This document shows, one piece after another, positions 24,805 through 58,200 of a stretch of DNA of 64,000 nucleotides. The notes beneath the pieces were generated by a model that saw nothing but the letters and a program-made list of their open reading frames with translations, was not told the DNA's origin and did not search any database. Source of the DNA: Vicinamibacterales bacterium (GTDB lineage Bacteria; Acidobacteriota; Vicinamibacteria; Vicinamibacterales; UBA8438); contig OZ253664.1 in the NCBI GenBank assembly GCA_965263195.1, positions 3,893,045-3,957,044 of the forward strand. The letters are read 5' to 3'. A program made the position numbers and the translations under genes. Each line of letters starts with the position of its first letter. The stretch's first letter is position 1.

Positions 24805-24996
24805 GTGGCCGGTCGCAACATCGTCTATCTCCTGCAGTCCGAGCAACACCCGCAGCAGCACTACGTTGGCCTGACGCAGAATCTGCGATGCCGGCTCGCC
24901 GCCCACAACGCCGGTCGGTCGACGCATACGGCGAAGCATCGACCGTGGCGTGTCGTTATCGCGGTCTGGTTCGGTGACGCGGCACACGCCCGCTGA
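24805..24996 (+). pseudogene. GIY-YIG nuclease family gene, 3'-truncated by an IS6 remnant
   Basis: (M)AGRNIVYLLQSEQHPQQHYVGLTQNLRCRLAAHNAGRSTHTAKHRPWRVV... is the small GIY-YIG pattern. The frame ends where IS6 homology starts (24992). Confidence 0.65.
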
Positions 24997-25312
24997 AGAT
25001 CTCCTCGCGCAGCGAGGCGTGACGGTCACCTACGAGACGATTCGGCAGTGGTGCCAGCGGTTCGGTCCGGTCTACGCCCGCCGGATGCGGCGCTTCACGT
25101 CGGCCGCCCACGTGCAACGGTTCGCGTCGGTACACGGAGTTGTGCAGAATCTCTTTCGAGTCGGGCGACATCTACTCCGGTCGAGGCACCACCGCGTGTT
25201 CCGAAAGCGGGCGTTCGTCGAATGGGATGCGGCGACGTGTGCGTGCTGAACGAGCGAGGGCGAACGACCTCGAGGCGGAGCAGCGCACTGTCCACACCAA
25301 GTTGACAGTGCC
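24992..25312 (+). mobile_element. IS6-family remnant (two joined internal/3' blocks, right IR intact)
   Basis: 24992-25080 matches 51612-51700 and 25084-25312 matches 52046-52240 of the fuller copy, implying about 345 bp deleted internally. It ends in ...AAGTTGACAGTGCC, reverse complement GGCACTGTCAAC (IS26-like IR). Confidence 0.85.
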
Positions 25313-25654
25313 GTGCCCAAAGCGATCGGTGATCAACTCGCCTCGGCTTACTATCGGGCTATGTTGCCGTGGGGGGCTGCGCGGTTCGACGACGAACACG
25401 AACTCGAGAACTTTCCCCATCTAGATGCGGTTCGGTTCGTCCGCTACGACGCACTCGATACACTTAGAGACAAGATTTCAGACCAGTCATCGCTCCTGCA
25501 GCATCGAGGTTTCGCCTTTGCATTGAAGCGAAATGAGCATGCCCGCAGTTTCATTCTCGCTGGGCGTGACACTGACGCGATCATCGACGCGATTGAGAGA
25601 CTTGGGAGCCTCAAGGCGCTGCGGGCCAACGGATTGCTTTTCCTCATCGAATAG
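25313..25654 (+). CDS. hypothetical protein, probably 5'-truncated at the IS6 end
   Basis: A 113-aa, more AT-rich ORF starting exactly at the IS6 boundary. Internal ATG at 25361. No family recognised. Confidence 0.4.
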   Translation: MPKAIGDQLASAYYRAMLPWGAARFDDEHELENFPHLDAVRFVRYDALDTLRDKISDQSSLLQHRGFAFALKRNEHARSFILAGRDTDAIIDAIERLGSLKALRANGLLFLIE

Positions 25655-29138: not shown

Positions 29139-30473
29139 CGCAATGCGAGCAGCAAGGCGTCGACGAGGGCATAGGCGCGGCCCTGGAGGCCGCGCGGCGT
29201 CCCGACGCCGAGCAGTTGCCGCATGAGCAGCCCGAGATTCAAGCCGCAGACCTGCAGGAGCAGGCGCTTGAGGATGTTGCCGTGTCCGCGCAGATGCACC
29301 CGGCGCATCCCTCCGGTGGCGTAGAGATGCGCATTGGGACGTTCGAGGCGTTCACCGCGCCGACGCAGCAGCCGCTTACCGCGTGCGCCGCGAATCCGTC
29401 GCCGGTTGGCATACACCGCGTCACGGGCGACGTGCTTCCCGCGCCAGTTGCGCCGGCCCCGGTCGGGCTCCGACACGTAGCTGCGGATCTCCACCGCGGC
29501 CAACGTGACCAGTGTCTGGTTGCTGTGGTAGCCCTTGTCGCAGACCAGCTCCGCGATGCCGGGCCCCGCCGGCAGCACCGCGTCGACCTGCTCGGCGGCG
29601 GTAACCAGCGTCTCGAGCATCGTCTGGGTATCGCCCGCATCCGCGTCCTGGACACTGACGCCGACCACCGCGCCCGTCTCCAGGTCCACGGCGCGGTTGG
29701 CCTTGTGCGCCAAGCGCGTCCTGCCGTCCTTCATCTTCGTGATCTTCGCGTCCGGGTCCTTGGGATGCGTCCAGTCGTCGTTGGACCCCTTCTTCGGGCG
29801 CTTGCGGTCGAAGCGGGCCAGTTCGGGCGCGCGTCGGCGTGGGGATGCCCGACGCCGCCGCCAGTCCGCGCAGGAACGTCTCGTAATCCGCGCCCGTATC
29901 CCGGCGTACGATGCTGCGAAGCGCCGCATTGGCTTCCAGCGTCGTCGCGTCGATGCCGACCGTCTTGCCCCCGACCAGGCCCGCGTCGGCCAGCCGCTGC
30001 AGCACCCAGGTGAAGACCGCCAGGTGCGTCTCGACGTCGATCCGACGCCGCGTGCGCGACACCGTCGAGTGGTCCGGCGGCGCCGCGTCGAGCGACACGT
30101 CGAGCAGCTGCCGCAGGCTCAGCGAATCGGCGGCCCGCCACGCAATCGCCCGTTCCGAGTCCAGCCCCTCGAAGTAGCCGAGCAGCAGCATCCGGAAGTA
30201 GCGGCCCGGCGCCAGACTCGGCCGACCGACCCCGTCGGCATAGAACTTGGCGCACTGCTGCTCGACGAAGGCGTCGAAGCCCGCCGCGTCGAGAACACGA
30301 TTCAGGCGTTCGTAAAACGGATGGCCCGCGCTGCGCGGCAGGTCCGAACTGGACACCCACATCGACGGCTGCCGCCCGCAACGGCGGCGCTTGCCCATTG
30401 CCATGGAAGGAAGTGTAGTACGTCAGATCGACCCTGTCGATCCCTATCCCGGACTTTCACCACAGGCTGCTAG
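29139..30473 (-). mobile_element. IS5/IS1182-like insertion sequence, copy 1 (left 142 bp missing)
   Basis: Near-identical to 34086-35420 (constant offset 4947). It keeps the ...CCACAGGCTGCTAG end but lacks the other IR. The transposase lies in two frames (29421-30404 N-part, 29087-29929 C-part). Confidence 0.88.
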
Positions 30474-33943: not shown

Positions 33944-35351
33944 CTAGCAGCCTGTGGCAGAACTGCCTTCTTGCAGCCCTGACAGAATGTGTGAATGAGT
34001 CGGCGTCATCGGGCGAATCCACGATGGAGCGGTCCAATTTTCCGACAGGAGTGCCGCTGAGCGCGATACGAGGCCCCAGAAGCGGCGCAATGCGAGCAGC
34101 AAGGCGTCGACGAGGGCATAGGCGCGGCCCTGGAGGCCGCGCGGCGTCCCGACGCGGAGCAGTTGCCGCATGAGCAGCCCGAGATTCAAGCCGCAGACCT
34201 GCAGGAGCAGGCGCTTGAGGATGTTGCCGTGTCCGCGCAGATGCACCCGGCGCATCCCTCCGGTGGCGTAGAGATGCGCATTGGGACGTTCGAGGCGTTC
34301 ACCGCGCCGACGCAGCAGCCGCTTACCGCGTGCGCCGCGAATCCGTCGCCGGTTGGCATACACCGCGTCACGGGCGACGTGCTTCCCGCGCCAGTTGCGC
34401 CGGCCCCGGTCGGGCTCCGACACGTAGCTGCGGATCTCCACCGCGGCCAACGTGACCAGTGTCTGGTTGCTGTGGTAGCCCTTGTCGCAGACCAGCTCCG
34501 CGATGCCGGGCCCCGCCGGCAGCACCGCGTCGACCTGCTCGGCGGCGGTAACCAGCGTCTCGAGCATCGTCTGGGTATCGCCCGCATCCGCGTCCTGGAC
34601 ACTGACGCCGACCACCGCGCCCGTCTCCAGGTCCACGGCGCGGTTGGCCTTGTGCGCCAAGCGCGTCCTGCCGTCCTTCATCTTCGTGATCTTCGCGTCC
34701 GGGTCCTTGGGATGCGTCCAGTCGTCGTTGGACCCCTTCTTCGGGCGCTTGCGGTCGAAGCGGGCCAGTTCGGGCGCGCGTCGGCGTGGGGATGCCCGAC
34801 GCCGCCGCCAGTCCGCGCAGGAACGTCTCGTAATCCGCGCCCGTATCCCGGCGTACGATGCTGCGAAGCGCCGCATTGGCTTCCAGCGTCGTCGCGTCGA
34901 TGCCGACCGTCTTGCCCCCGACCAGGCCCGCGTCGGCCAGCCGCTGCAGCACCCAGGTGAAGACCGCCAGGTGCGTCTCGACGTCGATCCGACGCCGCGT
35001 GCGCGACACCGTCGAGTGGTCCGGCGGCGCCGCGTCGAGCGACACGTCGAGCAGCTGCCGCAGGCTCAGCGAATCGGCGGCCCGCCACGCAATCGCCCGT
35101 TCCGAGTCCAGCCCCTCGAAGTAGCCGAGCAGCAGCATCCGGAAGTAGCGGCCCGGCGCCAGACTCGGCCGACCGACCCCGTCGGCATAGAACTTGGCGC
35201 ACTGCTCCTCGACGAAGGCGTCGAAGCCCGCCGCGTCGAGAACACGATTCAGGCGTTCGTAAAACGGATGGCCCGCGCTGCGCGGCAGGTCCGAACTGGA
35301 CACCCACATCGACGGCTGCCGCCAGCCACGGCGGCGCTTGCCCATTGCCAT
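33944..35351 (-). CDS. DDE transposase of the IS5/IS1182-like element, encoded in two frames
   Basis: N-part (35351 down): ...HPFYERLNRVLDAAGFDAF...RPSLAPGRYFRMLLLGYFEGLDSERA.... C-part: ...ELARFDRKRPKKGSNDDWTHPKDPDAKITKMKDGRTRLAHK...DKGYHS.... The frames join at a C/G run (34772-34774). The stop lies in the terminal CTAG. Confidence 0.8.
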
Positions 35352-35420
35352 GGAAGGAAGTGTAGTACGGCAGATCGACCCTGTCGATCCCTATCCCGGA
35401 CTTTCACCACAGGCTGCTAG
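33944..35420 (-). mobile_element. IS5/IS1182-like insertion sequence, copy 2 (complete, 1477 bp)
   Basis: Terminal inverted repeats CTAGCAGCCTGTGG (33944-33957) and CCACAGGCTGCTAG (35407-35420). Confidence 0.88.
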
Positions 35421-35570
35421 GCAACGACGGTGGTGAACACATTACCTAAGTTATGCCAAGCCTTAAGCACCGCCTACTGATATCAGGCATCTACACGATC
35501 TTCGTAGGCTTCATTCTTGGATGGGTGAGGCGCCCCCAGTTTTCTTGGACACGGATTAAGGGAGAATCCG

Positions 35571-36008
35571 ATGTCAAAGGAGGTGGGGGGCATGGTTCAG
35601 TCGAGGAGGGTGCAGGGAGCGGGGTCGGCGCGGACGGAGGGAGCCCGGAGGGCGAGCGGAGTCGGCGCCGACGGCGCGGCGGTTGGGGCGGGGGCCTTGG
35701 CGCCCGGCCAGCGGTGGAGCGCGAGCCGGAAACGGGACGTGGTGTTGCGGCTGCTGCGCGGCGAGTCGCTGGAGATGGTCTCGCGTGAAGTCGGGGTAGA
35801 GCTCTATCGCCTGGAGGCGTGGCAGGCGCGGGCGCTGGCCGGTCTCGAGCTCGGTCTGAAGGCGCAGGCCGGTGAGCCGCTGGCCGCCGAGCTGGATGCC
35901 GCCAAGCGCCACATTGGCGAGCTGTCGATGGAGATTGAGCTGTTGCGGGAGCGTGCCCGCGCAGCGGAGTGTCGCCTCCCTTTAGCGACGCGGAGGTCGC
36001 GACGATGA
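35571..36008 (+). CDS. IS orfA (HTH/leucine-zipper transposase N-terminal protein)
   Basis: 145 aa, ...RKRDVVLRLLRGESLEMVSREVGVELYRLEAWQARAL...IGELSMEIELLRER.... Confidence 0.85.
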   Translation: MSKEVGGMVQSRRVQGAGSARTEGARRASGVGADGAAVGAGALAPGQRWSASRKRDVVLRLLRGESLEMVSREVGVELYRLEAWQARALAGLELGLKAQAGEPLAAELDAAKRHIGELSMEIELLRERARAAECRLPLATRRSRR

Positions 36009-36904
36009 GCCGAGCGACCTCCGCGACGACGGGGCGGCGCTATGGTCTCAAGCGGGTGTGTCGAACGTGGGATAGGTCGCGCTCGGCGCTCTACGCGCGG
36101 CGGGCTTGTTTGCGGCGCCCAGAGCGGGGTGATGGCCCGGCGCGCCGCGGGCCGACGCCCGCACTGTCGGATGCGCAGCTGCTGGCGGCCATTCGCACTG
36201 ACCTGGCCCGCTCACCGTTCCAGGGCGAGGGCCATCGCAAGGTCCACGCGCGGCTGCGGATCCTCGACCGGATCCGAGTCTCCCGGACGCGGGTGTTGCG
36301 CGTGATGCGCACGCAGGGGCTGCTCTCGCCGCACCGCGGGCGGCAGGGTGAGATGAAAGCGCACGAGGGGACGATTGTCACCTCGGCGCCCGACGTCATG
36401 TGGGGTACCGACGGCGTGCGGGTGTTCACGGCGGAGGACGGCTGGGTCTGGACCTTCGCGGCGGTGGACCACTGGAACGCCGAGTGCGTGGGCTGGCATG
36501 TGTGCAAGGTGGGGAACCGTTTTGCCGCCCTCGAGCCGATCGCGCAAGGGCTCGGGCGACACTACGGCTCGGTCGAGGCGGACGTGGCCCGCGGGCTGGC
36601 GCTACGGATGGATCACGGCAGCCAGTATCTCTCGGACCACTTTCTCAACCAGCTCCGCTACTGGGGCATCCACCCCAGCTTCGGCTTCGTTGAAGAGCCG
36701 GAAACCAACGGCGTCGTCGAGCGCTGGAATCGCACGCTCAAGGAGCAAGCCATCTACGGCCGGGTCTTTCGAAACCTCGCCGAGGTGCGCGCCGCCGTCG
36801 CCGAGTTCGTCGAACGCTACAACCAGTGCTGGCGCCTCGAGAAGCTGGCGTATCGCACGCCGCTCGAAGCGCGCGAGGAATACGAGCTGCGCCATGCCGC
36901 GTAG
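35969..36904 (+). CDS. IS orfB (rve/DDE integrase-core transposase), expressed as an OrfAB fusion by -1 frameshifting
   Basis: ...WGTDGVRVFTAEDGWVWTFAAVDHWNAECVGW...MDHGSQYLSDHF...PETNGVVERWNRTLKEQ.... The -1 frame is entered at the slippery site. Confidence 0.88.
   Translation: MSPPFSDAEVATMSRATSATTGRRYGLKRVCRTWDRSRSALYARRACLRRPERGDGPARRGPTPALSDAQLLAAIRTDLARSPFQGEGHRKVHARLRILDRIRVSRTRVLRVMRTQGLLSPHRGRQGEMKAHEGTIVTSAPDVMWGTDGVRVFTAEDGWVWTFAAVDHWNAECVGWHVCKVGNRFAALEPIAQGLGRHYGSVEADVARGLALRMDHGSQYLSDHFLNQLRYWGIHPSFGFVEEPETNGVVERWNRTLKEQAIYGRVFRNLAEVRAAVAEFVERYNQCWRLEKLAYRTPLEAREEYELRHAA
35978..36025 (+). promoter_or_regulatory. programmed -1 ribosomal frameshift signal (slippery heptamer plus stem-loop)
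   Basis: C CCT TTA (35978-35984) is X XXY YYZ in the orfA frame. 4 nt later a perfect 12-bp stem forms: CGCGGAGGTCGC (35989-36000) / GCGACCTCCGCG (36014-36025), with a 13-nt loop. Confidence 0.8.
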
Positions 36905-37087
36905 CGCAAACGTGTGTCCAAGAAACCGGGTGCGGTACACATTCTTGGATGGGCTGAAAGCTTCACTTCTGGATGGCATTTCCTAAAGCTGCTCGGAATC
37001 ATCGCTCTACTGCCGATGTTTAAAGCGTTTGTCCCCGGCAATGAGCACATCTTCTTCACCCATGGCTACTGGCGACGTCTGTTCGGC

Positions 37088-39550: not shown

Positions 39551-39778
39551 GGAGGCGGCGGGACCTGCACCCGCCGCCAGGCGGATCGGGAACAGGTTCC
39601 CGCCTCCTCCACTATTTCTCCACGACCCGGGTCGACTCCAGGGGACTCAGGTGGATTCCAGTAGACTCGGCGGCTGCCGACAAACGCTTGACGTCGAACG
39701 TGTTAGACCACAAACTACGCGTCGTCAGTCAGTTACCGAAACACGCTCGCACGGGTTCGACTCCCGCCGCCTCCACCA
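39551..39778 (+). repeat. ssrA 3'-end remnant block A, ending in a perfect 27-nt copy of the tmRNA 3' terminus (attR-like)
   Basis: 39752-39778 CGGGTTCGACTCCCGCCGCCTCCACCA equals 24668-24694. Upstream lie weaker look-alikes of the same end (39595-39614, 39628-39639) and of the ssrA GTAGA..CGGCGG motif (39659-39673). Confidence 0.85.
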
Positions 39779-44103: not shown

Positions 44104-44496
44104 TCAGGACAAGGTAGCATAATGTGTGCCCAACAGGCACACATTGGCGTCAGCTAAACTACTCGTATGAGTATTAGTCCATCAGAGCAAGCGTTCGAGG
44201 ACTACTGCACGGCGGTAGGCATAGCAGGTAGACAGGAATCCCGAGGAGCAGGAGTCGGATCGCCAACTGGAAGCGACAGGTGTTGGGAAGGCACTGGGCA
44301 ACACACCAGGCCAACGTGTTCGCAAGAAAATCACCGCCGCCTCGAAGCAGTGTCAAGGCGCTAACTGAGGGACGCCACCCTGCCCTTCGTGTCCGCCATG
44401 GTCGACATCGTATTCCCCTTTCGGAAGATGTCCGCCAAACCGGATTTATGCGGAGCTCCGCATAACCGGATCAAGCCCACGGACCAGCTTTCAGGT

Positions 44497-45899
44497 TCAA
44501 GGAGCCCCGTCACGCGTGTCCCAGACCTTCCGCCACGCCGCGAACTCTCCGGGCGTGATCTGATAACGCGCGAAGTTGCCCTCATGCAGGTGCAGGAGCT
44601 CGGCTTCCGCGACTTCGCGAAAGATTTGCCGTTCGTCGGGAGCGATAGTCTGCTCCACCCGGGAAGCGATGTGAGCGGCGGCCTGCGCTCGTGGCACGCG
44701 TCCGCGCGCACAACCTCGGCGACCACCGCGCGCAACGCGTCGCGGTGCCGCAGCCGGAAAGGGTCCGGCTCACCGAGCGACTGCCGGACCGCCGCATAGC
44801 GCGCGGCCGAGCGCTCGTACGCCCAGATGAAGACATCCCTGAGCAGGTCGACCCTATTCAGCTCATACACGCCGAGGATCGCGTCGGTGTAGAGGCCGCG
44901 CGGCACGTCCGTAAAAGACAGCGGCGAGAGGTTGGTCTTGACGAAGGGGATGTTCGCCGCGATTCGCGATACGCGCTTGTTCACATCGTCGAACGGCTGC
45001 AGGTAGGGCAATTGCGCCATCACGAAGAACGACTGCTCGAACGGATCGGCGATCGCCGCCGCCGTTGCCAGCAGCTGGTCAAAACACTCTTCGACGAGCC
45101 GCGGCGTCTCAGGCGGATGGTAGACTGACCCCTCGATGCCGCCGCCGATATGCCGCAGCCTTCCTGCGGCTCCTTGGTCGGCCAGAAGGTTGTTCGCAAG
45201 GATGGCGTGCAGGTTGAGAATCGTATAGCGGTTGAATCCGATCTCCGCGGCGTTGCCCACGAGAAACTCGACCGCATCCTTGTGGTTGAGGATCATCTGC
45301 GCCTCGAGCCGGTCCCGGCCAGGCGCCTCCTGGCCGAATTCGATCAACCGCCGCGTATCGAGCAGGGAATAGGTGTTGCCCTCAAGGCGGCTTGAGTTCC
45401 ACGACAGATCAATCAGAAGCCGGCTCAGGATCTGCCGGGGGTAAGTGCCCGCCGGTTGCTGCGCGCTCACGTGGCGTTGGCCCGCCTCGGCCAGGCGCGC
45501 GCGCTCTTCGCGGGGCAGATAGAAGCTCTCTCCCGGACGGTACGAGTCCAGAAAACCCCGTTCATAGCCGACCGGATTGCGCGCTCCGGGCGGCTGGCGC
45601 AGATGCGCTCTGATTTCTTCACCGGCGCGTGAGAGCGCGATCCCGGACTCTTCCTCGGCCGGGGTTTCGGCTTTGGCGGCGGCGCGCGTTTCGGGCGCGC
45701 GATATTTCGCCCAGCGTCCCTCGCCCTCCATGACCAGACGCCCGTCATCCACGAGGCGCTTGAGCCGGTACTGCAGCGTCCGGCGCGGCATGGGCGCGCT
45801 CAGCGCCTCCGCGATCTCCGGGGCGGTAACAGCCCCGCCATGCGGGCGCACGGCCTTCTCGATTTCATCCAGCTTGTCTGTAGGCATTGGCCTTGGCAT
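44497..45899 (-). pseudogene. Fic-family protein with N-terminal wHTH, degenerate Fic motif and a C-terminal frameshift
   Basis: ATG 45899 (MPRPMPTDKLDEIEKAV...). Fic_N-like ...LLIDLSWNSSRLEGNTYS is present. The core motif reads QPFDDVNKRVSR instead of HPFxxGNGR. After ...AVVAEVVRAD the protein-like sequence continues in another frame (...AAAHIASRVEQTIAPDERQIF...WDTRDGAP*, stop 44497-44499). Confidence 0.75.
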
Positions 45900-46147
45900 T
45901 GGTGAGGTATCCTCTGAAGTTGCGCCTATACTTATACGAGCAATTAAAACCCATATACGCGCAACAATAAAGTTTACACGCAACTATTGTTGCGCGTAAG
46001 GGTCCAATCTGCCGTATGCGCAACTTCCAGAACCCTCAACACCCTAAAGACGGCGAAGTGGGCTCATCCGACGATGCGATGGCTTTTCGGGGAGTACACT
46101 GCTGCCGAAGCCGGGAACCGACCGGGGCTCGGGCGACCGACTCGTAG

Positions 46148-46365
46148 AGGAGACGGACCCGCACCCGTCGCCGCTTGGCGGCGGATCGGGAACAGGTTCC
46201 CGCCTCCTCCACTATTCCTCCACGAACCGGGTCGATTCGAGGGGACTCAGGTGGATACCAGTAGACTCGACGGCTGCCGACAAACGCTTGACGTCGAACG
46301 TGTTAGACCACAAACTACGCGTCGTCAGTCAGTTACTGAAACAAGCGCGAACGGGTTCGACTCCC
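46148..46365 (+). repeat. ssrA 3'-end remnant block B (homologue of block A, att core degenerate)
   Basis: 46181-46365 aligns with 39581-39765 at a constant offset of 6600 with about 10 substitutions. Only CGGGTTCGACTCCC (46352-46365) of the 27-nt core survives. Confidence 0.8.
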
Positions 46366-51468: not shown

Positions 51469-52240
51469 GGGTATTGTCAGGTTGAGGCGACGAGTGGCAG
51501 AGTAGGCCGATGAGGAGTCAGTCGGCCAGCTATCACGGATATCGATTCCCACCCGACATCATCAGCCACGCGGTCTGGCTCTACTATCGATTCTGTCTCA
51601 GCTTCCGCGATGCTGAAGATCTCCTCGCGCAGCGAGGCGTGACGGTCACCTACGAGACGATTCGGCAGTGGTGCCAGCGGTTCGGTCCGGTCTACGCCCG
51701 GCAGCTGCGGCGCCGGCGCGGTCGGATGGGAGACACCTGGCATCTCGACGAGGTGTTCGTCACGATCCAGGGTCGCCAACAGTATCTGTGGCGCGCAGTA
51801 GACGAGGACGGTGACGTCCTGGACATCCTCGTGCAATCGCACCGGAATCGGCGAGCAGCCGTCCGATTCTTTCGGACACTGCTGAAAACCCAGGGCCGTA
51901 TCCCTCGCCGGCTGATCACCGACCAGCTGCGCTCCTACGCCGCCGCGTGCCGCACCGTGATGCCGTCGGTGGTCCACGTCACTGATCAGTACGCGAACAA
52001 TCGAGCCGAGGTCTCCCACCAACCGACGCGTCAGCGGGAGCGCCAGATGCGGCGCTTCACGTCGGCCGCCCACGTGCAACGGTTCGCGTCGGCCGACATC
52101 TACTCCGGTCGAGCCATCACCGCGTGCTTCGAAGGCGGGCGTTCGTCGAATGGGATGCGGCGACGTGTGCGTGCTGAACGAGCGAGGGCGAACGACCTCG
52201 AGGCGGAGCCGCGCACTGTCCACACCAAGTTGACAGTGCC
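51469..52240 (+). mobile_element. IS6-family insertion sequence (near full length, 35-bp internal deletion)
   Basis: Right IR ...AAGTTGACAGTGCC ends at 52240. A degenerate left IR GGGTATTGTCAGGTTG starts near 51469. Relative to the 25.1-kb remnant it lacks about 35 bp (tacacggagttgtgcagaatctctttcgagtcggg) near 52093. Confidence 0.8.
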
Positions 52241-52280
52241 GGCAGCGGGGCTCTTGCTGCGGGATCCCGGCGACGGCTGA
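51510..52280 (+). pseudogene. IS6 transposase with a frameshifted C-terminus
   Basis: MRSQSASYHGYRFPPDIISHAVWLYYRFCLSFRDAEDLLAQRGVTVTYETIRQWCQRFGP...DEVFVTIQGRQQYLWRAVDEDG.... After ...AAHVQRFAS the frame is shifted by the 35-bp deletion and runs through the IR. Confidence 0.8.
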
Positions 52281-52390: not shown

Positions 52391-53883
52391 ATGGCCATCG
52401 CCGCGCAGACCGACTACGAGCTCGGGCGGGACAACATCAAGTTCCTCGGTCTCGACGTCCACAACCCGGTCTTCGTCGTCTCCAGCCTCACCGTCGTCGC
52501 GTTCGTTGCCGGGGTGCTGGCGTTCCGGGACGCCGCCGGCGGCGTCTTCGACGCGCTCTACGCCTGGCTGACCTCGACGCTCGACTGGGTGTTCATGGGC
52601 ACCGCCAACGTCTTCGTCCTCTTCTGCCTGATGCTGCTGGTGACGCCGCTCGGCCGCGTCCGCCTCGGCGGTCCGGAGGCCAGACCCGACTACTCCGCCT
52701 GGTCGTGGTTCGCCATGCTGTTCGCGGCCGGCATCGGCATCGGCCTGATGTTCTTCGGGGTGGCCGAGCCGGTCGACCATTTCCTGAATCCGCCGCTCGG
52801 CCTCGATCCGGCCGACACCGCCGCCGCGCAGCGGCTCGCCGTTGCCGCCACCATCTTCCACTGGGGTGTGCATCCCTGGGCGATATTCGCGGTCGTCGCG
52901 GTCGCGCTGGCCTTCGCCGCCTACAACCTCGGGTTGCCGCTGACGCTGCGGTCGGCGTTCTATCCCGTCCTGGGCGAGGCGGTATGGGGCTGGCGACGTC
53001 CCTGGGGCTGGGGGCCGAACAGACGGCGGCGGGGCTGGCCCACCTGTTCGGCGTGCCGGCCACCGACACGACCAGGGTGCTGCTGATTGCCGGCATCACC
53101 GCCATCGCGCTGACGTCGGTGGTGGCGGGGATGGACCGGGGCGTCAAGCGCCTGAGCCAGGCCAACCTGCTCCTGGCCCTGCTGCTGCTCGCGTTCGTGC
53201 TGGCGGTCGGGCCCACCCTCGACCTGCTCACCGGGTTCGTCACCAGCCTCGGCCACTATGCCGCGGCGATCGGACCGCTCAGCAACTGGGTCGGACGGGA
53301 CGATTCCGAATTCCTGCACGGGTGGACCACCTTCTTCTGGGCGTGGTGGCTCTCGTGGTCGCCCTTCGTCGGCCTGTTCATCGCCCGCGTCTCGCGCGGC
53401 CGCACGGTGCGCGCGCTCGTCGGCTGCATGCTGGTCGTCCCGGTGCTGGTCTCCGCGCTCTGGATGAACGTCTTCGGGGGGACTGCGCTGTCGCACCATC
53501 TTGATGCGGGCCAGACCGCCGTGGTCGCGGCGGTGCAGGCGCAGCAGCCGGAAATGGCCCTGTTCAGGATGCTGGAGGCGCTGCCGCTCGCCGGCGTGAC
53601 GTCGGGTATCGGCATCGTCCTGGTGATCGTGTTCTTCGTCACCTCTTCCGATTCGGGCTCGCTGGTCATCGACACCATCACCGCCGGCGGCAAGCTCGAC
53701 GCGCCGGTCGCCCAGCGCGTCTTCTGGTGCGCGTTCGAAGGGATCGTCGCCATCACCCTGCTGCTCGGCGGCGGGCTCGTGGCGCTGCAGGCCGCGGCGC
53801 TCGCCACCGGCTTCCCGTTCGCGCTGGTGCTGGTAGCCATGTGCTACAGCACCTGGAAGGGTCTGCGCGCGGCCAGTCGCTGA
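52391..53883 (+). pseudogene. BCCT-family (betaine/carnitine/choline) transporter with internal deletion/frameshift
   Basis: ...FYPVLGEAVWG (frame 1) joins directly to LATSLGLGAEQT... (another frame) near 52975-52995, so the conserved segment between them is missing. The rest is typical BCCT (WTTFFWAWWLSWSPFVGLFIARVSRGRT). Confidence 0.8.
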
Positions 53884-53961: not shown

Positions 53962-54900
53962 ATGCACATGTGCGCGTACCGCAGGCGCCTCCGCATCGGT
54001 CTCGCCGCGGTCCTGGTGGCGCTGCTGGCCTACGCCGGCGTGTCGGTCGTGGTCGCCGACCAAGTGACGAAGCCGTACCGCCGCCCGCTGGCCTCGTCGC
54101 CGGCCGTCTTCGGCCTGCAATACGAGGACGTGACCTTCCCCAGCACCGACGACGCTGTCCCGCTGCGGGGCTGGTTCCTGCCCGCCGCCGGCAGCGACCG
54201 CGTCGTGGTCATCGTCCACGGCCGCAACTCGAACCGCAGCGGCGACCACGGCGAGCTCGTGCCGCATGCCGAGGCGCTCGTCGAGCGCGGCTACAACGCG
54301 CTGCTGTTCGACTTCCGCGGCCACGGGGAATCCGGCGGCGTGCGCTACACCCTGGGCACGGTCGAGCAGCGCGACGTGCTGGGCGCCGTGGCCTACCTCG
54401 AGAGCCGCGGCTTCGCGCCGGCGCGCATGGGCTTCTGGGCGCATTCAATGGGCGCCGCCACCGTGCTGCTGGCGTCTGCCGCCTCGCCGGACGTGCGCAC
54501 CATCGTGGCCGACAGCAGCTTCGCCCGCCTCGATGACCTGCTGGACCGGCAGCTGCCGTTCGCGAGCGGACTGCCCGGCTTCTTCAATCCGTCCATCCTC
54601 TACTTCGCCAGGACCCTGTTCAACGCGGACGCGAGGATCGTGAACCCGGTCGACGCGGTCGCCGGCCTGCCGCCGAATTCGCTGTTCATCATCCATGCCG
54701 AGGCCGACCGGCTCATACCCGTCGACCATGCCCGCCGCATCGCCGCCGCGGCCGGACCCGCCGTCTACGACCTCTGGATCTTCCCCGGCTCGCGCCACGA
54801 CGGCGTATCGCTGTCCGCCCCGGACCGCTACCGGGCGCGCGTGCTGCCGTTCTTCGAGCGGTGGCTGCCCGAGACGCCGCGGTCTCGGCCCGCGCGTTGA
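53962..54900 (+). CDS. alpha/beta-fold hydrolase with N-terminal membrane anchor
   Basis: 312 aa: VVIVHGRNSNRSG, nucleophile elbow AHSMGAAT, and ...IHAEADRLIPVDHA. Confidence 0.8.
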   Translation: MHMCAYRRRLRIGLAAVLVALLAYAGVSVVVADQVTKPYRRPLASSPAVFGLQYEDVTFPSTDDAVPLRGWFLPAAGSDRVVVIVHGRNSNRSGDHGELVPHAEALVERGYNALLFDFRGHGESGGVRYTLGTVEQRDVLGAVAYLESRGFAPARMGFWAHSMGAATVLLASAASPDVRTIVADSSFARLDDLLDRQLPFASGLPGFFNPSILYFARTLFNADARIVNPVDAVAGLPPNSLFIIHAEADRLIPVDHARRIAAAAGPAVYDLWIFPGSRHDGVSLSAPDRYRARVLPFFERWLPETPRSRPAR

Positions 54901-55041
54901 TGAGACGGTAGGCGCTGGTTGGATCCCCCGCCCAGCCCGGGATGAGCCCCCGGCGCAGCATCGCCAGCCGGGGTCCGCCTCGCTTGACCGCCCGCGGGCG
55001 GTCGGCTATCGTCGCCGCGTCGGTCCGACCAACGACGAGCC

Positions 55042-55965
55042 ATGCCCCACAGGATTGTTTCGCTCATCTCCAGCGCCACCGAAATCGTGTGCGCGCTCGG
55101 CTTCGAAAACGAGCTCGTCGGCCGCTCCCACGAATGCGACTATCCGGCGTCCATCGTGAAGCTCCCGGCCTGCTCGACGTCGAAGGTGCGGCTCGACGCC
55201 GCGGGGCGCGCCATCGACGACCAGGTACGGTCGATCGTCGCCGACGGGTTGTCCGTGTACCGCGTCGATCCGGACCTGCTGAACCGGCTCGCGCCGACCG
55301 TAATCATCACGCAGACGCAGTGCGACGTGTGTGCCGTGAGCCTGAAGGACGTCGAGCAGGCGGTCTGCGAGCTGGTCAGCTCGCGGCCGTCCATCGTGAC
55401 GCTGGAGCCGATGGGGCTGGGCGACATATGGAAGGACATCCGGGCGGTGGCGGCGGCGCTCGACGCGCCGGCGCGCGGCGAGGAACTCGTAGCCCGGCTC
55501 GAGGACCGGCTGGAGACTGTCCGCAGCCAAACGCGACAGGCGGGCTCGCGCCCATCCATCGCCTGCGTCGAGTGGATCGACCCGCTGATGATGGCCGCCA
55601 ACTGGGTGCCCGAGCTGGTCGACTGCGCCGGCGGCGCGAACCGCTTCGGGGAGCCGGGCAAGCACTCCGGCTACCTGGACATGGAGCAGCTGTTCGCGGC
55701 CGACCCCGATGTGATTGCCGTGATGCCGTGCGGCTTCGACATCGACCGCGCCTGGCGCGAGATGCAGCCGCTGGCCGGCCACCCGCAATGGCAGCAGCTT
55801 TCGGCGGTCCGCAACGGGCGCGTGGTGATGGCCGACGGCAACCAGTACTTCAACCGGCCCGGACCGCGCGTCGTGGAGTCGGCCGAGATCCTGGCCGAGT
55901 GCCTGCACCCCGATCGCTGCGACTTCGGACACCGCGGCCGGGGCTGGCGGTACTGGAACGCCTGA
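55042..55965 (+). CDS. cobalamin/siderophore-type (class III, BtuF-like) substrate-binding protein, no signal peptide
   Basis: MPHRIVSLISSATEIVCALGFENELVGRSHECDYP...VIITQTQCDVCAV...NGRVVMADGNQYFNRPGPR. Confidence 0.75.
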   Translation: MPHRIVSLISSATEIVCALGFENELVGRSHECDYPASIVKLPACSTSKVRLDAAGRAIDDQVRSIVADGLSVYRVDPDLLNRLAPTVIITQTQCDVCAVSLKDVEQAVCELVSSRPSIVTLEPMGLGDIWKDIRAVAAALDAPARGEELVARLEDRLETVRSQTRQAGSRPSIACVEWIDPLMMAANWVPELVDCAGGANRFGEPGKHSGYLDMEQLFAADPDVIAVMPCGFDIDRAWREMQPLAGHPQWQQLSAVRNGRVVMADGNQYFNRPGPRVVESAEILAECLHPDRCDFGHRGRGWRYWNA

Positions 55966-55969
55966 GCTG

Positions 55970-56122
55970 CTACCGCTCCGGCTTCACCACCACCGTCGCC
56001 AGCAGGTAGCCGTGGCGGCGGAGCAGCGCGAAGCGGCGCGAGAGGTGGTCGAACGGGGCGCAGGCCAGGCCGGTGAGGCGGCTGACGAAGCGCGGCGCCC
56101 AGGCGTTGGCCGCCAGGTCCAC
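55970..56122 (-). repeat. orphan duplicate of the methyltransferase gene's last 153 bp (left direct repeat)
   Basis: Identical to 58048-58200 except for one synonymous C/G difference. Encodes VDLAANAWAPRFVSRLTGLACAPFDHLSRRFALLRRHGYLLATVVVKPER*. Confidence 0.92.
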
Positions 56123-56164
56123 TGACTCTTATCTGGGTTGGTTAGAATAAGTGTTGACTTGAGG

Positions 56165-56914
56165 ATGGCGTCCCCGACAGGCGCCGACGCGATCGGCCAG
56201 ATGAAAGCCAAGACGAACGGCTCGGGCGGAGATGGACAACGCGTCAACCTCGTTGAGTTGTCTGTCGTCCTGGTCGCCACTTCCAACAACCCTTCGATCA
56301 TCAATCGGGACTTCCTGATCCACAACGAAATCGTCGGCAAGGACTGTCCACTCCGAGAAGATTCCCTCGCCACACCCGTTTTCTCACAGGTCGCATTCGA
56401 GGGTGGCGTGACCGTTCGCGCAGACCCGGACCGGGTCATGTTCATTCAGTCAACATCTGAAGTGCGCCTGACAAACATCATCTGTGCGGACATGGCGGAA
56501 CGCTATGTGCGAACCGTGCCGCACGTTCCGTACCGGGCCGTCGGCATCAACCCCAAGTTCCACCTCGGTATGGACGAGGCCACGAGTGGTAGTGTGGCGA
56601 ATGCGCTTAAGGATCGAGGCTCGTGGCTTTCCTACAAGGACAGCGAGCCGGAGATTCAGCTTAAGGCAATTTATCCGTTCAGTTCACGTAAGATCATCAT
56701 GGACGTGCTTGGCGCGACAAGACGTCTCCGGAACGGACAAGGAGTTCCGGGCCTTCTGTTCACAGGCAACATCCACCGAGATCTTGGACAAACCACCCAG
56801 CAGGGGCGCATCGAAGCTCTGGTTTCCATCATCCGTAGTTGGGAAAATGACGTGCTTGATTTCGGAACGCTCGTGCACAAGTTCGAGTTACACGCCGTGC
56901 AGGATTTGACATGA
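56165..56914 (+). CDS. cassette gene 1: hypothetical protein, family not recognised
   Basis: First of three coupled ORFs. Start options are TTG 56138, ATG 56165, ATG 56201. It encodes ...VNLVELSVVLVATSNNPSIINRDFLIHNEIV...YRAVGINPKFHL.... Mixed beta-rich pattern, vaguely like TIGR04255-type proteins (weak recollection). Confidence 0.65.
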   Translation: MASPTGADAIGQMKAKTNGSGGDGQRVNLVELSVVLVATSNNPSIINRDFLIHNEIVGKDCPLREDSLATPVFSQVAFEGGVTVRADPDRVMFIQSTSEVRLTNIICADMAERYVRTVPHVPYRAVGINPKFHLGMDEATSGSVANALKDRGSWLSYKDSEPEIQLKAIYPFSSRKIIMDVLGATRRLRNGQGVPGLLFTGNIHRDLGQTTQQGRIEALVSIIRSWENDVLDFGTLVHKFELHAVQDLT

Positions 56915-57591
56915 CATCGCTGCAGACGACACCGGACTGGACCGAGACTGCCTCGGGAGAATCCGAGTCCATTTTTCACACTGAGGACACTGTGCCATTT
57001 CGGACTGGCTCGTTCGTCTTCAGTAACCCAGTTGACTTGGGTTGGTCGACGAGCGAGGAGGCAACCGAGTGCTGGCGAAGACTGATTCGAGGCCCCCATC
57101 CCTCTACCGATGTCCGGACGCTTGATGACATGTCGAGTGTAGACATACGGCGACACGAGTTTTTCGCTCTTGTACTGCGGTCGGGACAAATCCAGCCGGC
57201 GATCACGTCGGCCACGCTTACTGCGAACGCCGATCTGCGTGCCGCCATGCAGGATCTTGACGGGGCAATTGAGGAGGCACGAGAGGAAGGCTACCCGCAA
57301 CCGTCGAGCCTGGCGCTGAAGAATGCGGAACGCCTGCTGCGGGACCTCTACAGGCTTCGCAACTGCCGTTTCGAGGTCTATCCGACGCCGGACGCCGAAA
57401 TTGCCATCGTCGTGCCTGGCGGGCATGGGCAATCGCTGCTTGTGCTATGCGACTCGGACGGCGGTGCCTTGTGCTCCGTTAACCTGAACGGCGAGCATCG
57501 CCGCGCCCGGTACACCACCGTAACAGCGCTGCCCGATGGCTTCGTTCGGGAAGCTCTTGATGAACTGGACGAACCAATCCAGGTTTCGTGA
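56911..57591 (+). CDS. cassette gene 2: hypothetical protein, family not recognised
   Basis: 226 aa with ATGA overlap onto gene 1. The acidic C-terminal half (...FEVYPTPDAEIAIVVPGGHGQSLLVLCDSDGGALCSVNL...) is reminiscent of small antitoxin/immunity-type domains. Confidence 0.65.
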   Translation: MTSLQTTPDWTETASGESESIFHTEDTVPFRTGSFVFSNPVDLGWSTSEEATECWRRLIRGPHPSTDVRTLDDMSSVDIRRHEFFALVLRSGQIQPAITSATLTANADLRAAMQDLDGAIEEAREEGYPQPSSLALKNAERLLRDLYRLRNCRFEVYPTPDAEIAIVVPGGHGQSLLVLCDSDGGALCSVNLNGEHRRARYTTVTALPDGFVREALDELDEPIQVS

Positions 57592-58010
57592 GTGTTCCCG
57601 ACAGCATCAGTCACGAAGAAGAGCTTGGGCGTAGTGTCTTTTCGCACCGACACGCCAACCGCGCTCTACGATCATCGGTTCCTCACCACGTTTTCCTGAC
57701 CAAACCGGGCGATACCCGCATCTCTGTCGACAGGCTCAGCGTTACACCGCCGGACCAAGCCATTGCCTTGGCTCTGGCAGCCGCTACCGACCGTGGGCGC
57801 ACGTTCTACGGATGGGCCACCGTCAACGCCGATGCGGTCCGAAGCAACGGAAGAAACGTCATGGCCACCCCTGTGCCAGACAAGAATCCGTATCACGCCG
57901 ACATCATCCTTCCGGAATCGGCTGCGTCGGATCGTGAAGAGCAGACGCGCCACGCTCAGGAACTTGCGGATGCGTCACGCTGGCGTGCACACCAGAATCC
58001 ACACACTTGA
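57588..58010 (+). CDS. cassette gene 3: hypothetical protein, family not recognised
   Basis: 140 aa with GTGA overlap onto gene 2. It encodes ...ELGRSVFSHRHANRA...ISVDRLS...RTFYGWATVNADAVRSNGRNVMATPVPDKNPYHADIILP.... Confidence 0.65.
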   Translation: MSVPDSISHEEELGRSVFSHRHANRALRSSVPHHVFLTKPGDTRISVDRLSVTPPDQAIALALAAATDRGRTFYGWATVNADAVRSNGRNVMATPVPDKNPYHADIILPESAASDREEQTRHAQELADASRWRAHQNPHT

Positions 58011-58047
58011 GGAGATGCCGGGCGCGGCGTCGCGCTGACCGCTCTCT

Positions 58048-58200
58048 CTACCGCTCCGGCTTCACCACCACCGTCGCCAGCAGGTAGCCGTGGCGGCGGA
58101 GCAGCGCGAAGCGGCGGGAGAGGTGGTCGAACGGGGCGCAGGCCAGGCCGGTGAGGCGGCTGACGAAGCGCGGCGCCCAGGCGTTGGCCGCCAGGTCCAC
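58048..58200 (-). repeat. right copy of the 153-bp direct repeat (functional 3' end of the methyltransferase gene)
   Basis: See 55970-56122. Constant offset 2078 bp. Confidence 0.92.

What the first reader, a model, noticed from the sequence alone, without database searches (positions are those of the whole stretch)
55970..58200. Three-gene operon of unrecognised proteins inserted at a methyltransferase 3' end and bracketed by a 153-bp direct duplication
The last 153 bp of the methyltransferase gene (58048-58200) recur at 55970-56122 with one synonymous mismatch. The 1925 bp between them (56123-58047) is visibly more AT-rich than both flanks. It carries three same-strand ORFs joined by ATGA and GTGA stop/start overlaps, which points to obligate co-expression. 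I cannot assign any of the three proteins to a family. Gene 3 has a distinctive ISVDRL...FYGWA...NPYHADIxLP pattern, and gene 2 has an acidic C-terminal domain of the kind seen in antitoxin or immunity proteins. No recombinase is present. This architecture (gene-end duplication, compositional shift, tight three-gene operon, TA- and IS-rich neighbourhood) is what a horizontally acquired defence or toxin-immunity cassette looks like.
Basis: partly seen in the sequence, partly recalled or inferred. Interest (0 to 1): 0.85.

Follow-up and report, generated by a model that had tools for sequence, protein, structure and literature searches.

The report
Toxin-antitoxin-like cassette with long target duplication
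A foreign 1.9-kb three-gene cassette of unannotated proteins, built like a toxin-antitoxin pair plus an accessory gene, sits at the end of a methyltransferase gene and duplicated 153 bp of it on entry; the same cassette family entered several other bacterial genomes the same way, with no recombinase of its own.

Summary
A 153-bp direct repeat (55970-56122 and 58048-58200, one synonymous mismatch) brackets a 1925-bp insert with 59% GC against 70% in the flanks. The insert carries three overlapping genes. At least nine other contigs from several samples span the whole structure, so it is not an assembly artefact.

None of the three proteins matches Pfam, NCBIfam, PADLOC, PHROGs or PDB sequences. 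A confident model of g3 has no structural neighbour.

The conserved core is a pair: the acidic C-terminal domain of g2, followed directly by the 140-aa g3. This pair occurs in 79 of 80 related genome loci, at 49 unrelated chromosomal sites and in at least 8 phyla. g1 together with the N-terminal extension of g2 is an optional add-on. One g2 relative carries a Phd/YefM antitoxin domain.

My best reading is a new toxin-antitoxin-like addiction or abortive-infection module, with g2 as neutraliser, g3 as effector and g1 as accessory. Function is inferred, not shown.

The architecture matches "insertion with long target duplication", previously described for restriction-modification genes. It recurs in this family with 43-1138-bp duplications and one verified empty site. 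In 5 of 5 resolvable cases, one edge of the duplication lies within 10 nt of the target gene's stop codon. The insertion mechanism is unresolved.

The parts
55042..55965 (+). Flanking host gene: BtuF-like periplasmic binding protein (307 aa). It converges on the methyltransferase gene, and its stop lies 4 nt before the left repeat.
   Evidence: Pfam Peripla_BP_2, E 1e-22. The same neighbour is present in all related contigs.
55970..56122 (-). Left copy of the 153-bp direct repeat. It is an orphan duplicate of the last 50 codons plus the stop of the methyltransferase gene, and it is still contiguous with the original downstream DNA (the BtuF-like gene).
   Evidence: Across strains it differs from the right copy by 0-3 bases.
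56123..58047 (+). Inserted cassette: 1925 bp, GC 0.586 against 0.697 in the flanks. It holds three genes and no mobility gene.
56165..56914 (+). g1 (249 aa): an accessory first gene from an uncharacterised family. The model is a two-lobed alpha/beta sandwich. Distant relatives head a different three-gene operon.
   Evidence: No Pfam, NCBIfam, PADLOC or PHROGs hit. It has 101 homologues. The AF2 model has pLDDT 85.6. Foldseek gives only a weak AdoMetDC-like match (E 2e-4, TM 0.34). An alternative downstream gene pair is found in L184, L188 and L190.
56911..57591 (+). g2 (226 aa, pI 4.6). It has a variable N-terminal extension (about residues 1-104) and a conserved C-terminal domain (about residues 105-221). 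It is the putative antitoxin or neutraliser.
   Evidence: The C-terminal domain sits directly upstream of g3 in 79 of 80 loci. The family has short (115-166 aa) and long (209-330 aa) forms. One relative carries a Phd/YefM N-terminal domain (E 1.6e-8). It is acidic family-wide.
57588..58010 (+). g3 (140 aa, GTG start overlapping the g2 stop). It is a highly conserved alpha/beta protein with no known fold match, and the putative toxin or effector.
   Evidence: More than 521 homologues. The family has 802 clusters at 50% identity, all standalone proteins of about 135-150 aa. Mean column identity across phyla is 64%. The AF2 model has pLDDT 92.3. There is no PDB or BFVD structural neighbour and no Pfam hit even for distant members.
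58048..58200 (-). Right copy of the repeat. It is the functional 3' end (last 50 codons plus stop) of the methyltransferase gene.
   Evidence: Eighty methyltransferase homologues align through residues about 268-271, so this C-terminus is native to the family.
58048..58863 (-). Target host gene: a class I SAM-dependent methyltransferase (271 aa), left intact by the duplication.
   Evidence: Pfam Methyltransf_11, E 2e-21.

Best explanation
The 1925 bp between the repeats is a horizontally acquired cassette. It entered at the junction of two convergent host genes by 'insertion with long target duplication'. The last 153 bp of the methyltransferase gene, ending exactly at its stop codon, were duplicated, so both host genes stayed intact. 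The cassette carries no recombinase.

Its conserved core is a two-gene module organised like a type II toxin-antitoxin pair. An acidic protein domain of about 120 aa (the g2 C-terminal domain) is followed, with overlapping stop and start codons, by a 140-aa protein (g3). I infer that g3 is a toxin or effector with a new fold, and that g2 neutralises it by direct binding. I further infer that g1, together with the g2 N-terminal extension, is an optional accessory such as a regulator, sensor or stabiliser.

Such a module behaves as an addiction element, and possibly as an abortive-infection element. Cells that lose it are penalised. Such a penalty could account for its persistence between 153-bp repeats, which would otherwise permit precise RecA-mediated deletion.

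Shown here: the insertion architecture, the foreign composition, the pair conservation, the spread across phyla and sites, and the recurrence of long target duplications. Inferred: the toxicity of g3, neutralisation by g2, the role of g1, and the molecular mechanism of insertion. That mechanism might involve staggered breaks with fill-in, template switching, or another break-repair route.
For: Architecture:
- The repeat, the insert and the GC shift are confirmed.
- The structure is present in at least 9 other contigs from several samples.
- The insert and its surroundings contain no integrase, tRNA or Rfam RNA.

Mobility and horizontal transfer:
- g3 relatives occur in 80 of 80 sampled genome loci, which fall into 49 unrelated flank clusters.
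- The host lineages include Acidobacteriota, Latescibacterota, Nitrospirales, Chloroflexota, Gamma- and Alphaproteobacteria, Binatia, Rhodothermales and Entotheonella.
- Cassette GC is lower than flank GC in 66 of 79 loci.
- Two copies at 92% identity lie at two sites in one genome (L020 and L022).

TA-like organisation:
- The g2 C-terminal domain lies immediately upstream of g3 in 79 of 80 loci.
- A minimal form is a g2 of about 115-166 aa plus g3.
- g2 is acidic.
- One g2 homologue has a Phd/YefM antitoxin domain in front of the g2C domain.
- g3 is broken or N-terminally truncated in 3 of 80 loci (L050, L072, L075).

Recurrent long target duplication with different targets:
- L065: 175 bp of an AcrB 3' end, with the empty site verified in L077.
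- L059: 74 bp of ComEC.
- L083: 52 bp.
- L062/L057: 43 bp.
- L093: about 160 bp of hsdM.
- L042: 1138 bp.
- L091: about 950 bp.
- Flanking repeats were found in 13 of 80 loci. Shifted control positions gave 6 of 75 and 1 of 76.

Literature: the same mode is described for RM gene complexes, with repeats that often span the target's stop or start codon (PMC2853133).
Against: - No experiment or homology links g3 to any known toxin, or g2C to any known antitoxin.
- The window's own g2 has no recognisable DNA-binding domain. Only 1 of 36 sampled relatives has one.
- The g2C domain is well conserved and probably folded, unlike many antitoxin C-termini.
- g3 is near-neutral in charge (pI 6.75, family median 6.6), not basic.
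- No empty site was found for the window's own insertion. The single-copy ancestral state is therefore inferred from the geometry and from the sister case L065/L077.
- Only about 9 of 50 independent sites retain detectable flanking duplications.
- At least one locus, L051, is instead flanked by two copies of an IS-like element.
Confidence: 0.55

Rival explanations
1. Functional rival (it overlaps with the best explanation): the operon is a dedicated three-component anti-phage defence system. In this reading g1 is the sensor, g2 the adaptor or inhibitor and g3 the effector, and it is not a plain addiction module.
For: g1 is a shared first module with at least two alternative downstream gene pairs, a modularity typical of defence systems. 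One such distant operon lies beside a Drt8 defence reverse transcriptase (E 1e-144), a PDC-M19A-like gene and a phage integrase. Some cassettes sit in or beside type I RM loci (L093, L014/L017, L008-L013). Among 94 flanking genes, HsdR was hit 3 times, DNA methylases 3 times and AAA_21/AAA_15 ATPases 2 times.
Against: There is no PADLOC hit for any of the three proteins. Most flanking genes at the 49 sites are housekeeping. About 30 loci carry only g2C plus g3, without g1. The family is absent from 50,697 phage and 72,556 plasmid records. No phage data exist.
Confidence: 0.25
2. Mechanistic rival: the repeats are attL/attR sites of a small integrative element. A site-specific recombinase encoded elsewhere would move it, and the element would carry a surrogate 3' end of its target gene.
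For: Duplications at gene 3' ends are typical of integrase-mediated islands, and one repeat edge lies at the stop codon. A Phage_int_M fragment lies a few kb upstream in related contigs.
Against: Related cassettes sit in different target genes (methyltransferase, AcrB, ComEC, hsdM, a HEPN-DUF499 gene and others). In each case the repeat copies the local host sequence, and repeat lengths vary from 43 to 1138 bp. Cassette ends are not conserved, and they differ between copies. The space downstream of g3 is 0-40 nt in most cases, leaving no room for a common att site. No tRNA is involved.
Confidence: 0.05
3. Mechanistic rival: a circular intermediate carrying the cassette plus a captured piece of the methyltransferase 3' end integrated by a single homologous crossover (Campbell type). 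The repeat would then equal the homology carried on the circle. This fits the 'virus-like life cycle' proposed for RM complexes.
For: It gives exactly the repeat-insert-repeat topology. It accounts for variable repeat lengths and near-identical copies (152/153). Recombination between repeats would regenerate the circle. The idea is discussed for RM units (PMC2853133).
Against: It does not explain how the first circle acquired host sequence ending at the stop codon. No circular or tandemly amplified form was seen in the assemblies examined. It cannot start an insertion in a naive species that lacks homology.
Confidence: 0.1
4. The duplication is an assembly or scaffolding artefact, or the three ORFs are an ordinary host operon with a chance local duplication.
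For: Short-read contigs of the same organism end inside the repeat.
Against: At least nine other contigs from several samples span the whole structure without gaps. The cassette family is patchily distributed across at least 8 phyla and 49 contexts. Eighty methyltransferase homologues lack it.
Confidence: 0.02

Closest known systems
Insertion with long target duplication of restriction-modification gene complexes (Nobusato et al. 2000, Gene 259:99; Furuta et al. 2010, PMC2853133)
   Same: In both, a small selfish-type gene unit without mobility genes is flanked by long direct repeats of variable length. Furuta's survey required repeats over 30 bp and lists examples of 46 to about 420 bp. The repeats correspond to single-copy sequence at the empty site and often span the stop or start codon of the target gene, leaving it intact. 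The insert composition deviates from the host. The mechanism is unknown in both.
   Different: The cargo here is not an RM system. It is an unannotated TA-like pair plus an accessory gene. The repeats reach 1.1 kb. One repeat edge lies within 10 nt of the target stop codon in 5 of 5 resolvable events, which is tighter than selection alone predicts. For the window itself no empty site was found.
Type II toxin-antitoxin modules (e.g. Phd/Doc, YefM/YoeB) and tripartite variants
   Same: Two small co-directional genes have overlapping stop and start codons. The acidic protein comes first. Distribution is patchy and driven by horizontal transfer. Chromosomal copies sit among housekeeping genes and other TA modules. 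One relative of the first protein carries a Phd/YefM DNA-binding domain.
   Different: Neither protein is homologous to a known toxin or antitoxin family by sequence, and g3 has no match by fold (the g2 C-terminal domain was not modelled). The putative antitoxin domain is strongly conserved and usually lacks a DNA-binding domain. About half of the loci add a third, upstream gene (g1), which also serves a different downstream pair elsewhere.
Genomic islands integrated at gene 3' ends by tyrosine recombinases (attL/attR direct repeats)
   Same: Direct repeats derived from the 3' end of a host gene flank foreign DNA, and the target gene is kept intact.
   Different: There is no integrase and no conserved att core. 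The targets and repeat lengths differ from locus to locus, and the insert is only 1-2 kb.
IS elements with long, variable target duplications. Examples are IS1630 at 19-26 bp, cited in PMC2853133, and, from my own knowledge, IS1634 of Mycoplasma mycoides at up to several hundred bp.
   Same: The target duplication is long and variable in length.
   Different: Those elements encode a transposase and have defined inverted-repeat ends. This cassette has neither.

Membership tests
Insertion with long target duplication (criteria of Furuta et al. 2010) | The insert is flanked by direct repeats longer than 30 bp. | tested here: met
   153 bp, 152/153 identical.
Insertion with long target duplication (criteria of Furuta et al. 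2010) | The repeat corresponds to a single-copy sequence at an empty site in a related genome. | tested here: inconclusive
   No empty allele was found for the window. The criterion is met for the sister event, where L065 is filled and L077 is empty.
Insertion with long target duplication (criteria of Furuta et al. 2010) | The insert is shorter than 20 kb and holds no mobility gene, and the repeat is not an IS or a tRNA. | tested here: met
   The insert is 1925 bp and holds three non-mobility genes. There is no tRNA. The repeat occurs only twice in the window.
Insertion with long target duplication (criteria of Furuta et al. 2010) | The cargo includes restriction and modification genes (the class was defined on RM systems). 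| tested here: not met
   None of the three proteins hits an RM family. The mode applies, but the cargo class differs.
Type II toxin-antitoxin system | Two adjacent, co-transcribed small genes that are always found together. | tested here: met
   The g2C domain and g3 are adjacent in 79 of 80 loci, with 4-bp overlaps in the window.
Type II toxin-antitoxin system | The antitoxin has a DNA-binding domain and autoregulates. | tested here: inconclusive
   Only 1 of 36 g2 relatives has a Phd/YefM domain, and the window's g2 has none. Autoregulation is not testable here.
Type II toxin-antitoxin system | The toxin belongs to a recognised toxin superfamily. | tested here: not met
   No Pfam, NCBIfam, PADLOC, PHROGs or PDB sequence match. 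No fold match in PDB or BFVD.
Type II toxin-antitoxin system | The toxin arrests growth and the antitoxin neutralises it by binding. | not testable with these tools
   This needs expression assays.
Known anti-phage defence systems (PADLOC-DB v2.0.0) | At least one protein matches a model of a known or candidate system. | tested here: not met
   0 hits at E up to 1 for g1, g2 and g3.
Integrase-mediated genomic island | An integrase gene and a conserved attachment core at the element ends. | tested here: not met
   There is no integrase in the insert. Junction sequences and targets differ among family members.
Diversity-generating retroelement (template and variable repeats at a gene 3' end) | A reverse transcriptase nearby, and adenine-specific mismatches between the repeats. 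| tested here: not met
   No RT lies in or next to the insert. The single mismatch is C versus G, and it is synonymous.

The most novel reading that the evidence does not exclude
g1-led operons are a new, modular class of addiction or defence systems. A common first component is coupled to interchangeable neutraliser-effector pairs, of which g2-g3 is one. The long target duplications are not passive scars. They would result from the module's own activity, for example effector-provoked DNA breaks or stalled forks near gene ends that capture the cassette. That would make such cassettes self-mobilising without a recombinase. It would also explain why one duplication edge falls at the target's stop codon.
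Probability: 0.12. Interest if true: 0.88.

Novelty: new variant of a known kind. Interest (0 to 1): 0.6.

Why it matters
Three points make this finding useful.

1. It defines a large, completely unannotated protein pair. g3 has at least 802 clusters at 50% identity and a confidently predicted fold with no structural neighbour. The pair has spread across at least eight bacterial phyla. Judging from the MAG names, and from my own knowledge rather than any test here, many hosts are sponge or coral symbionts. If g3 is a toxin, it is a new toxin fold with an unknown target.

2. It extends "insertion with long target duplication" from restriction-modification genes to a different kind of selfish cassette. 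That mobility mode was described in 2000 and its mechanism is still unexplained. The family supplies a set of natural events, including a verified empty site. It also supplies a sharp regularity, one edge at the target's stop codon, that any mechanistic model must explain.

3. g1 appears to be a reusable module with alternative partner pairs, which hints at a wider family of three-gene systems.

Tried and rejected
Family and structure searches
- Pfam, NCBIfam, PADLOC and PHROGs found nothing for g1, g2 or g3.
- Pfam also found nothing for distant g3 relatives.
- PDB sequence-profile searches with the g3, g1 and g2 alignments found nothing meaningful.
- Foldseek of the g3 model against PDB gave a best E of 0.26 with TM below 0.26. 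Against BFVD the best hit had E 0.047 and TM 0.45, to an unnamed protein.
- Foldseek of the g1 model gave only weak AdoMetDC-like and START/Bet v 1-like matches with TM 0.34 or lower. I do not base any function on them.

Searches around the insert
- The Rfam scan of 54500-59500 gave 0 matches.
- The sigma-70 promoter scan gave 0 sites, and terminator-like sites were at chance level.
- The tRNA scan gave 0.

Empty-site searches for the window
- Exact look-ups of the methyltransferase and the BtuF-like protein returned only filled alleles.
- A metagenome scan with the methyltransferase returned 80 homologues at 59-75% identity. None had the cassette or conserved synteny, so none is informative as an empty site.

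Vector search
- g3 has no match in 72,556 plasmid or 50,697 phage records.
- It has one distant relative (38% identity) among IMG/VR viral contigs.

Rejected ideas
- A DGR template/variable repeat pair: there is no RT and the mismatch is not adenine-specific.
- A composite transposon for the window: there are no IS copies at its ends, although L051 does have that arrangement.
- Fixed cassette termini: the ends differ between the window, L020/L022 and the other loci.

Exclusions from the target-duplication count
- L090 and L066 have flanking repeats that are partial tandem copies of cassette genes, so they were not counted as target duplications.
Full report
**1. The observation**

The window holds a 153-nt direct repeat at 55970-56122 and 58048-58200 with one mismatch. 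The mismatch is C at 56039 against G at 58117. It is synonymous, because the orphan copy translates to the same 50 residues as the methyltransferase C-terminus. A 42-nt probe from the repeat occurs only at these two places in the 64 kb, against none expected by chance.

The repeat begins with CTA, the reverse complement of the methyltransferase stop codon. The left copy lies 4 nt after the stop of a convergent BtuF-like gene at 55042-55965. The 1925 bp between the copies have GC 0.586, against 0.697 in the flanks.

The insert carries three same-strand genes joined by ATGA and GTGA overlaps:
- g1, 56165-56914, 249 aa
- g2, 56911-57591, 226 aa
- g3, 57588-58010, 140 aa, with a GTG start

The structure is not an assembly artefact. 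At least nine other contigs, from several ENA samples, align without gaps across BtuF-like gene, repeat, insert, repeat and methyltransferase at 98.7-99.96% identity (L094, L096-L101, L191). Short-read contigs of the same organism break inside the repeat, as a real repeat would cause.

**2. What the genes are**

None of the three proteins matches Pfam, NCBIfam, PADLOC or PHROGs at E up to 1. Profiles of each family find nothing meaningful among PDB sequences.

*g3.* It has more than 521 relatives in the word-indexed search. A full HMM scan of 1.84 billion representatives finds 802 clusters at 50% identity, all standalone proteins of about 135-150 aa. Conservation is high, with 64% mean column identity across phyla. 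Invariant residues include R25, R49, R69, W76, R89, N100, Y102, H103, D105, R116 and R121. The AlphaFold model is confident (pLDDT 92.3, pTM 0.85). It has no structural neighbour in PDB (best E 0.26, TM below 0.26) or BFVD.

*g1.* Its model is also good (pLDDT 85.6). It resembles known folds only weakly: an AdoMetDC-like sandwich at E 2e-4 but TM 0.34, and START/Bet v 1 more weakly still. I draw no function from this.

**3. Which parts belong together**

I examined 80 genome loci that encode a g3 relative. In 79 of them, the C-terminal domain of g2 (about residues 105-221) lies immediately upstream of g3. g1 is detectable in about half. Gene lengths separate two architectures:
- g1 plus a long g2 (209-330 aa) plus g3
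- a short g2 (115-166 aa, the C-terminal domain only) plus g3

The conserved core is therefore the g2C-g3 pair. g1 travels with the N-terminal extension of g2.

g2 is acidic, with pI 4.63 and a family median of 4.75 for the C-terminal domain. g3 is near neutral. One g2 relative (P0155) has a Phd/YefM antitoxin domain in front of the g2C domain (E 1.6e-8).

The g1 family reaches further. A g1 relative at 39% identity is still followed by a g2 homologue. g1 relatives at 30-34% identity head a different three-gene operon: g1', an acidic protein of 146-157 aa, and a protein of 217-236 aa. The third proteins are 41-53% identical to one another and unrelated to g2 or g3. g1 is thus a reusable first module. 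One of these distant operons lies next to a Drt8 defence reverse transcriptase and a phage integrase.

**4. Distribution**

The 80 loci fall into 49 clusters by flank similarity, so there are at least 49 independent chromosomal contexts. The host lineages include Vicinamibacterales, Bryobacterales, Latescibacterota, Nitrospirales, Dehalococcoidia/SAR202, Gamma- and Alphaproteobacteria, Binatia, Rhodothermales and Entotheonella. Many MAG names suggest sponge or coral symbionts. That is my own knowledge and was not tested here.

- Within some lineages the cassette is inherited at a fixed site across species-level divergence. Examples are seven to nine Latescibacterota or Dehalococcoidia loci that share flanks.
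- One Bryobacterales genome has two copies, 92% identical over 1.14 kb, at unrelated sites (L020 and L022).
- Cassette GC is below flank GC in 66 of 79 loci. The mean difference is 4 points, and it is 11 points in the window.
- Flanking genes are mostly housekeeping. A minority are type I RM, DNA methylase and AAA_21/AAA_15 genes.
- g3 is absent from 72,556 plasmid and 50,697 phage records. It has one distant relative in IMG/VR.

**5. The duplication is a recurrent mode of entry**

Flanking direct repeats occur in 13 of 80 loci. Shifted control positions gave 6 of 75 and 1 of 76. After inspection, the following are duplications of local host sequence:

| Locus | Duplication | Target |
|---|---|---|
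| L065 | 175 bp | AcrB 3' end |
| L059 | 74 bp | ComEC 3' end |
| L083 | 52 bp | hexapeptide transferase |
| L062/L057 | 43 bp | one event, unknown 982-aa gene |
| L093 | about 160 bp | hsdM 3' end (NPPF and DPACGTGG motifs visible) |
| L042 | 1138 bp | HEPN_Swt1-DUF499 gene |
| L091 | about 950 bp | 5' part of a DNA methylase gene |

For L065, the related genome L077 provides the empty site. L077 carries a single copy of the segment, and that copy aligns to both L065 junctions.

Some cases were set aside. L051 is flanked by two copies of an element of about 830 bp with terminal inverted repeats, which is a composite-transposon-like arrangement. L090 and L066 carry partial tandem copies of cassette genes.

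Cassette ends are not conserved. The distance from the g3 stop to the repeat is 0-40 nt in most cases, and the left ends differ. This argues against a site-specific recombinase.

**6. An unexplained regularity**

Where the target's stop codon can be located, one edge of the duplication lies very close to it:
- window: 0 nt
- L065: -2 nt
- L042: +7 nt
- L059: +10 nt
- L093: -6 nt

The cassette lies in either orientation relative to the target. Suppose the edges were random and constrained only to include the stop codon. The chance of five events within about 10 nt of it would then be of the order of 1e-6. This is my rough estimate, the product of 11/L over the five repeat lengths.

Selection for intact genes requires only that the duplication contain the stop codon. 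It does not require an edge at the stop codon, so selection alone does not explain the pattern. In the window and in L065 the target converges on a neighbouring gene with only 4-13 nt between the stops. In L059 the gene end abuts another TA-like cassette, a PIN-type one.

**7. Comparison with what is known**

The architecture matches "insertion with long target duplication", defined by Kobayashi's group for restriction-modification gene complexes. In that class, small units without mobility genes are flanked by long, variable direct repeats (46 to about 420 bp). [quoted passage not shown] The mechanism is unknown. The authors hypothesise a life cycle of invasion, amplification through the repeats and release (PMC2853133).

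In the searchable library, papers that mention this mode together with toxin-antitoxin systems do so only with reference to RM systems. The cargo here is organised like a type II TA pair, but it belongs to no known toxin or antitoxin family. PADLOC does not recognise it either.

**8. Conclusion and confidence**

I am confident, at about 0.9, that this is a real, horizontally acquired cassette inserted with a long target duplication.

I hold the functional reading with moderate confidence, at about 0.55. In that reading the cassette is an addiction or abortive-infection module, g2 neutralises a g3 effector, and g1 is an accessory. The reading rests on gene organisation, pair conservation, one antitoxin-domain fusion and distribution. 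It does not rest on homology or experiment.

A dedicated defence role is a live alternative and overlaps with this reading. Integrase-mediated integration and an assembly artefact are unlikely.

The finding is a new variant of known kinds: a new TA-like family with an optional modular third gene, and a non-RM example, in fact a series of examples, of long-target-duplication insertion.

Noticed in passing
window 59292-60707 and 35525-36940: Two copies, 99.8% identical over 1416 bp, of an IS with a two-ORF rve-type transposase. The copy at 59292-60707 splits a PNPOx-family gene that is intact (170 aa) in other strains (L094). It is flanked by a 14-bp target duplication (CCGGGTCGGTGGAG), and the other copy has a duplication of about 13 bp. 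These are unusually long for IS3-like elements.
   Followed up: partly
window 29139-30473 and 34086-35420: Two direct copies, 99.6% identical over 1335 bp, of another IS (DUF772 transposase domain), 4.9 kb apart.
   Followed up: partly
window 39561-39765 and 46155-46365: A 211-bp direct repeat at 91% identity brackets about 6.4 kb of lower-GC small genes. These include a Fic/DOC-HTH protein (44361-45983) and a DDE_3 transposase fragment. This could be a second long-target-duplication event or simply paralogous gene ends.
   Followed up: no
window 24992-25313 and 51612-52241: Short dispersed repeats 26 kb apart (102 bp at 97% identity, 235 bp at 82%). They may be a miniature element.
   Followed up: no
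window 15203-15765: Three tandem-like copies of a unit of about 152 nt, at 73-83% identity.
   Followed up: no
window 52391-53883; L191-L193: The BCCT transporter gene upstream is a single 514-aa ORF in one related contig (L191). It is split into 157 + 299 aa in two others and appears broken in the window. This suggests ongoing pseudogenisation that varies between strains.
   Followed up: no
L184-L188, L190 (g1' at L184:3001-3702; partners at 3693-4133 and 4138-4791): Distant g1 homologues head a different three-gene operon whose middle and third proteins are unannotated. In L184 the operon lies beside a Drt8 defence reverse transcriptase (664-2256), a PDC-M19A-like gene and a phage integrase.
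   Followed up: partly
L093:10488-11034: The orphan copy of the hsdM 3' end downstream of the cassette is itself interrupted by about 550 bp. This piece encodes a small antitoxin-like protein and the start of a PIN/VapC-like protein. In L059 a PIN-type pair also abuts the cassette. TA-like cassettes seem to pile up at the same gene ends.
   Followed up: partly
L051:7693-8491 and 10692-11518: Here the cassette is flanked by two direct copies of an element of about 830 bp with terminal inverted repeats (CTAGGG..GTTAACACTA / TAGTGTTAAC..CCCTAG). This composite-transposon-like arrangement is a second route of mobility for the same cassette family.
   Followed up: partly
L020 and L022 (same Bryobacterales chromosome OZ252099.1): Two g2-g3 copies, 92% identical over 1.14 kb, lie at unrelated sites. 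Both share an internal deletion that removed most of g1. Both end in a conserved hairpin-like motif (TGTAAGC...GCTTACA) about 120 nt after g3.
   Followed up: partly
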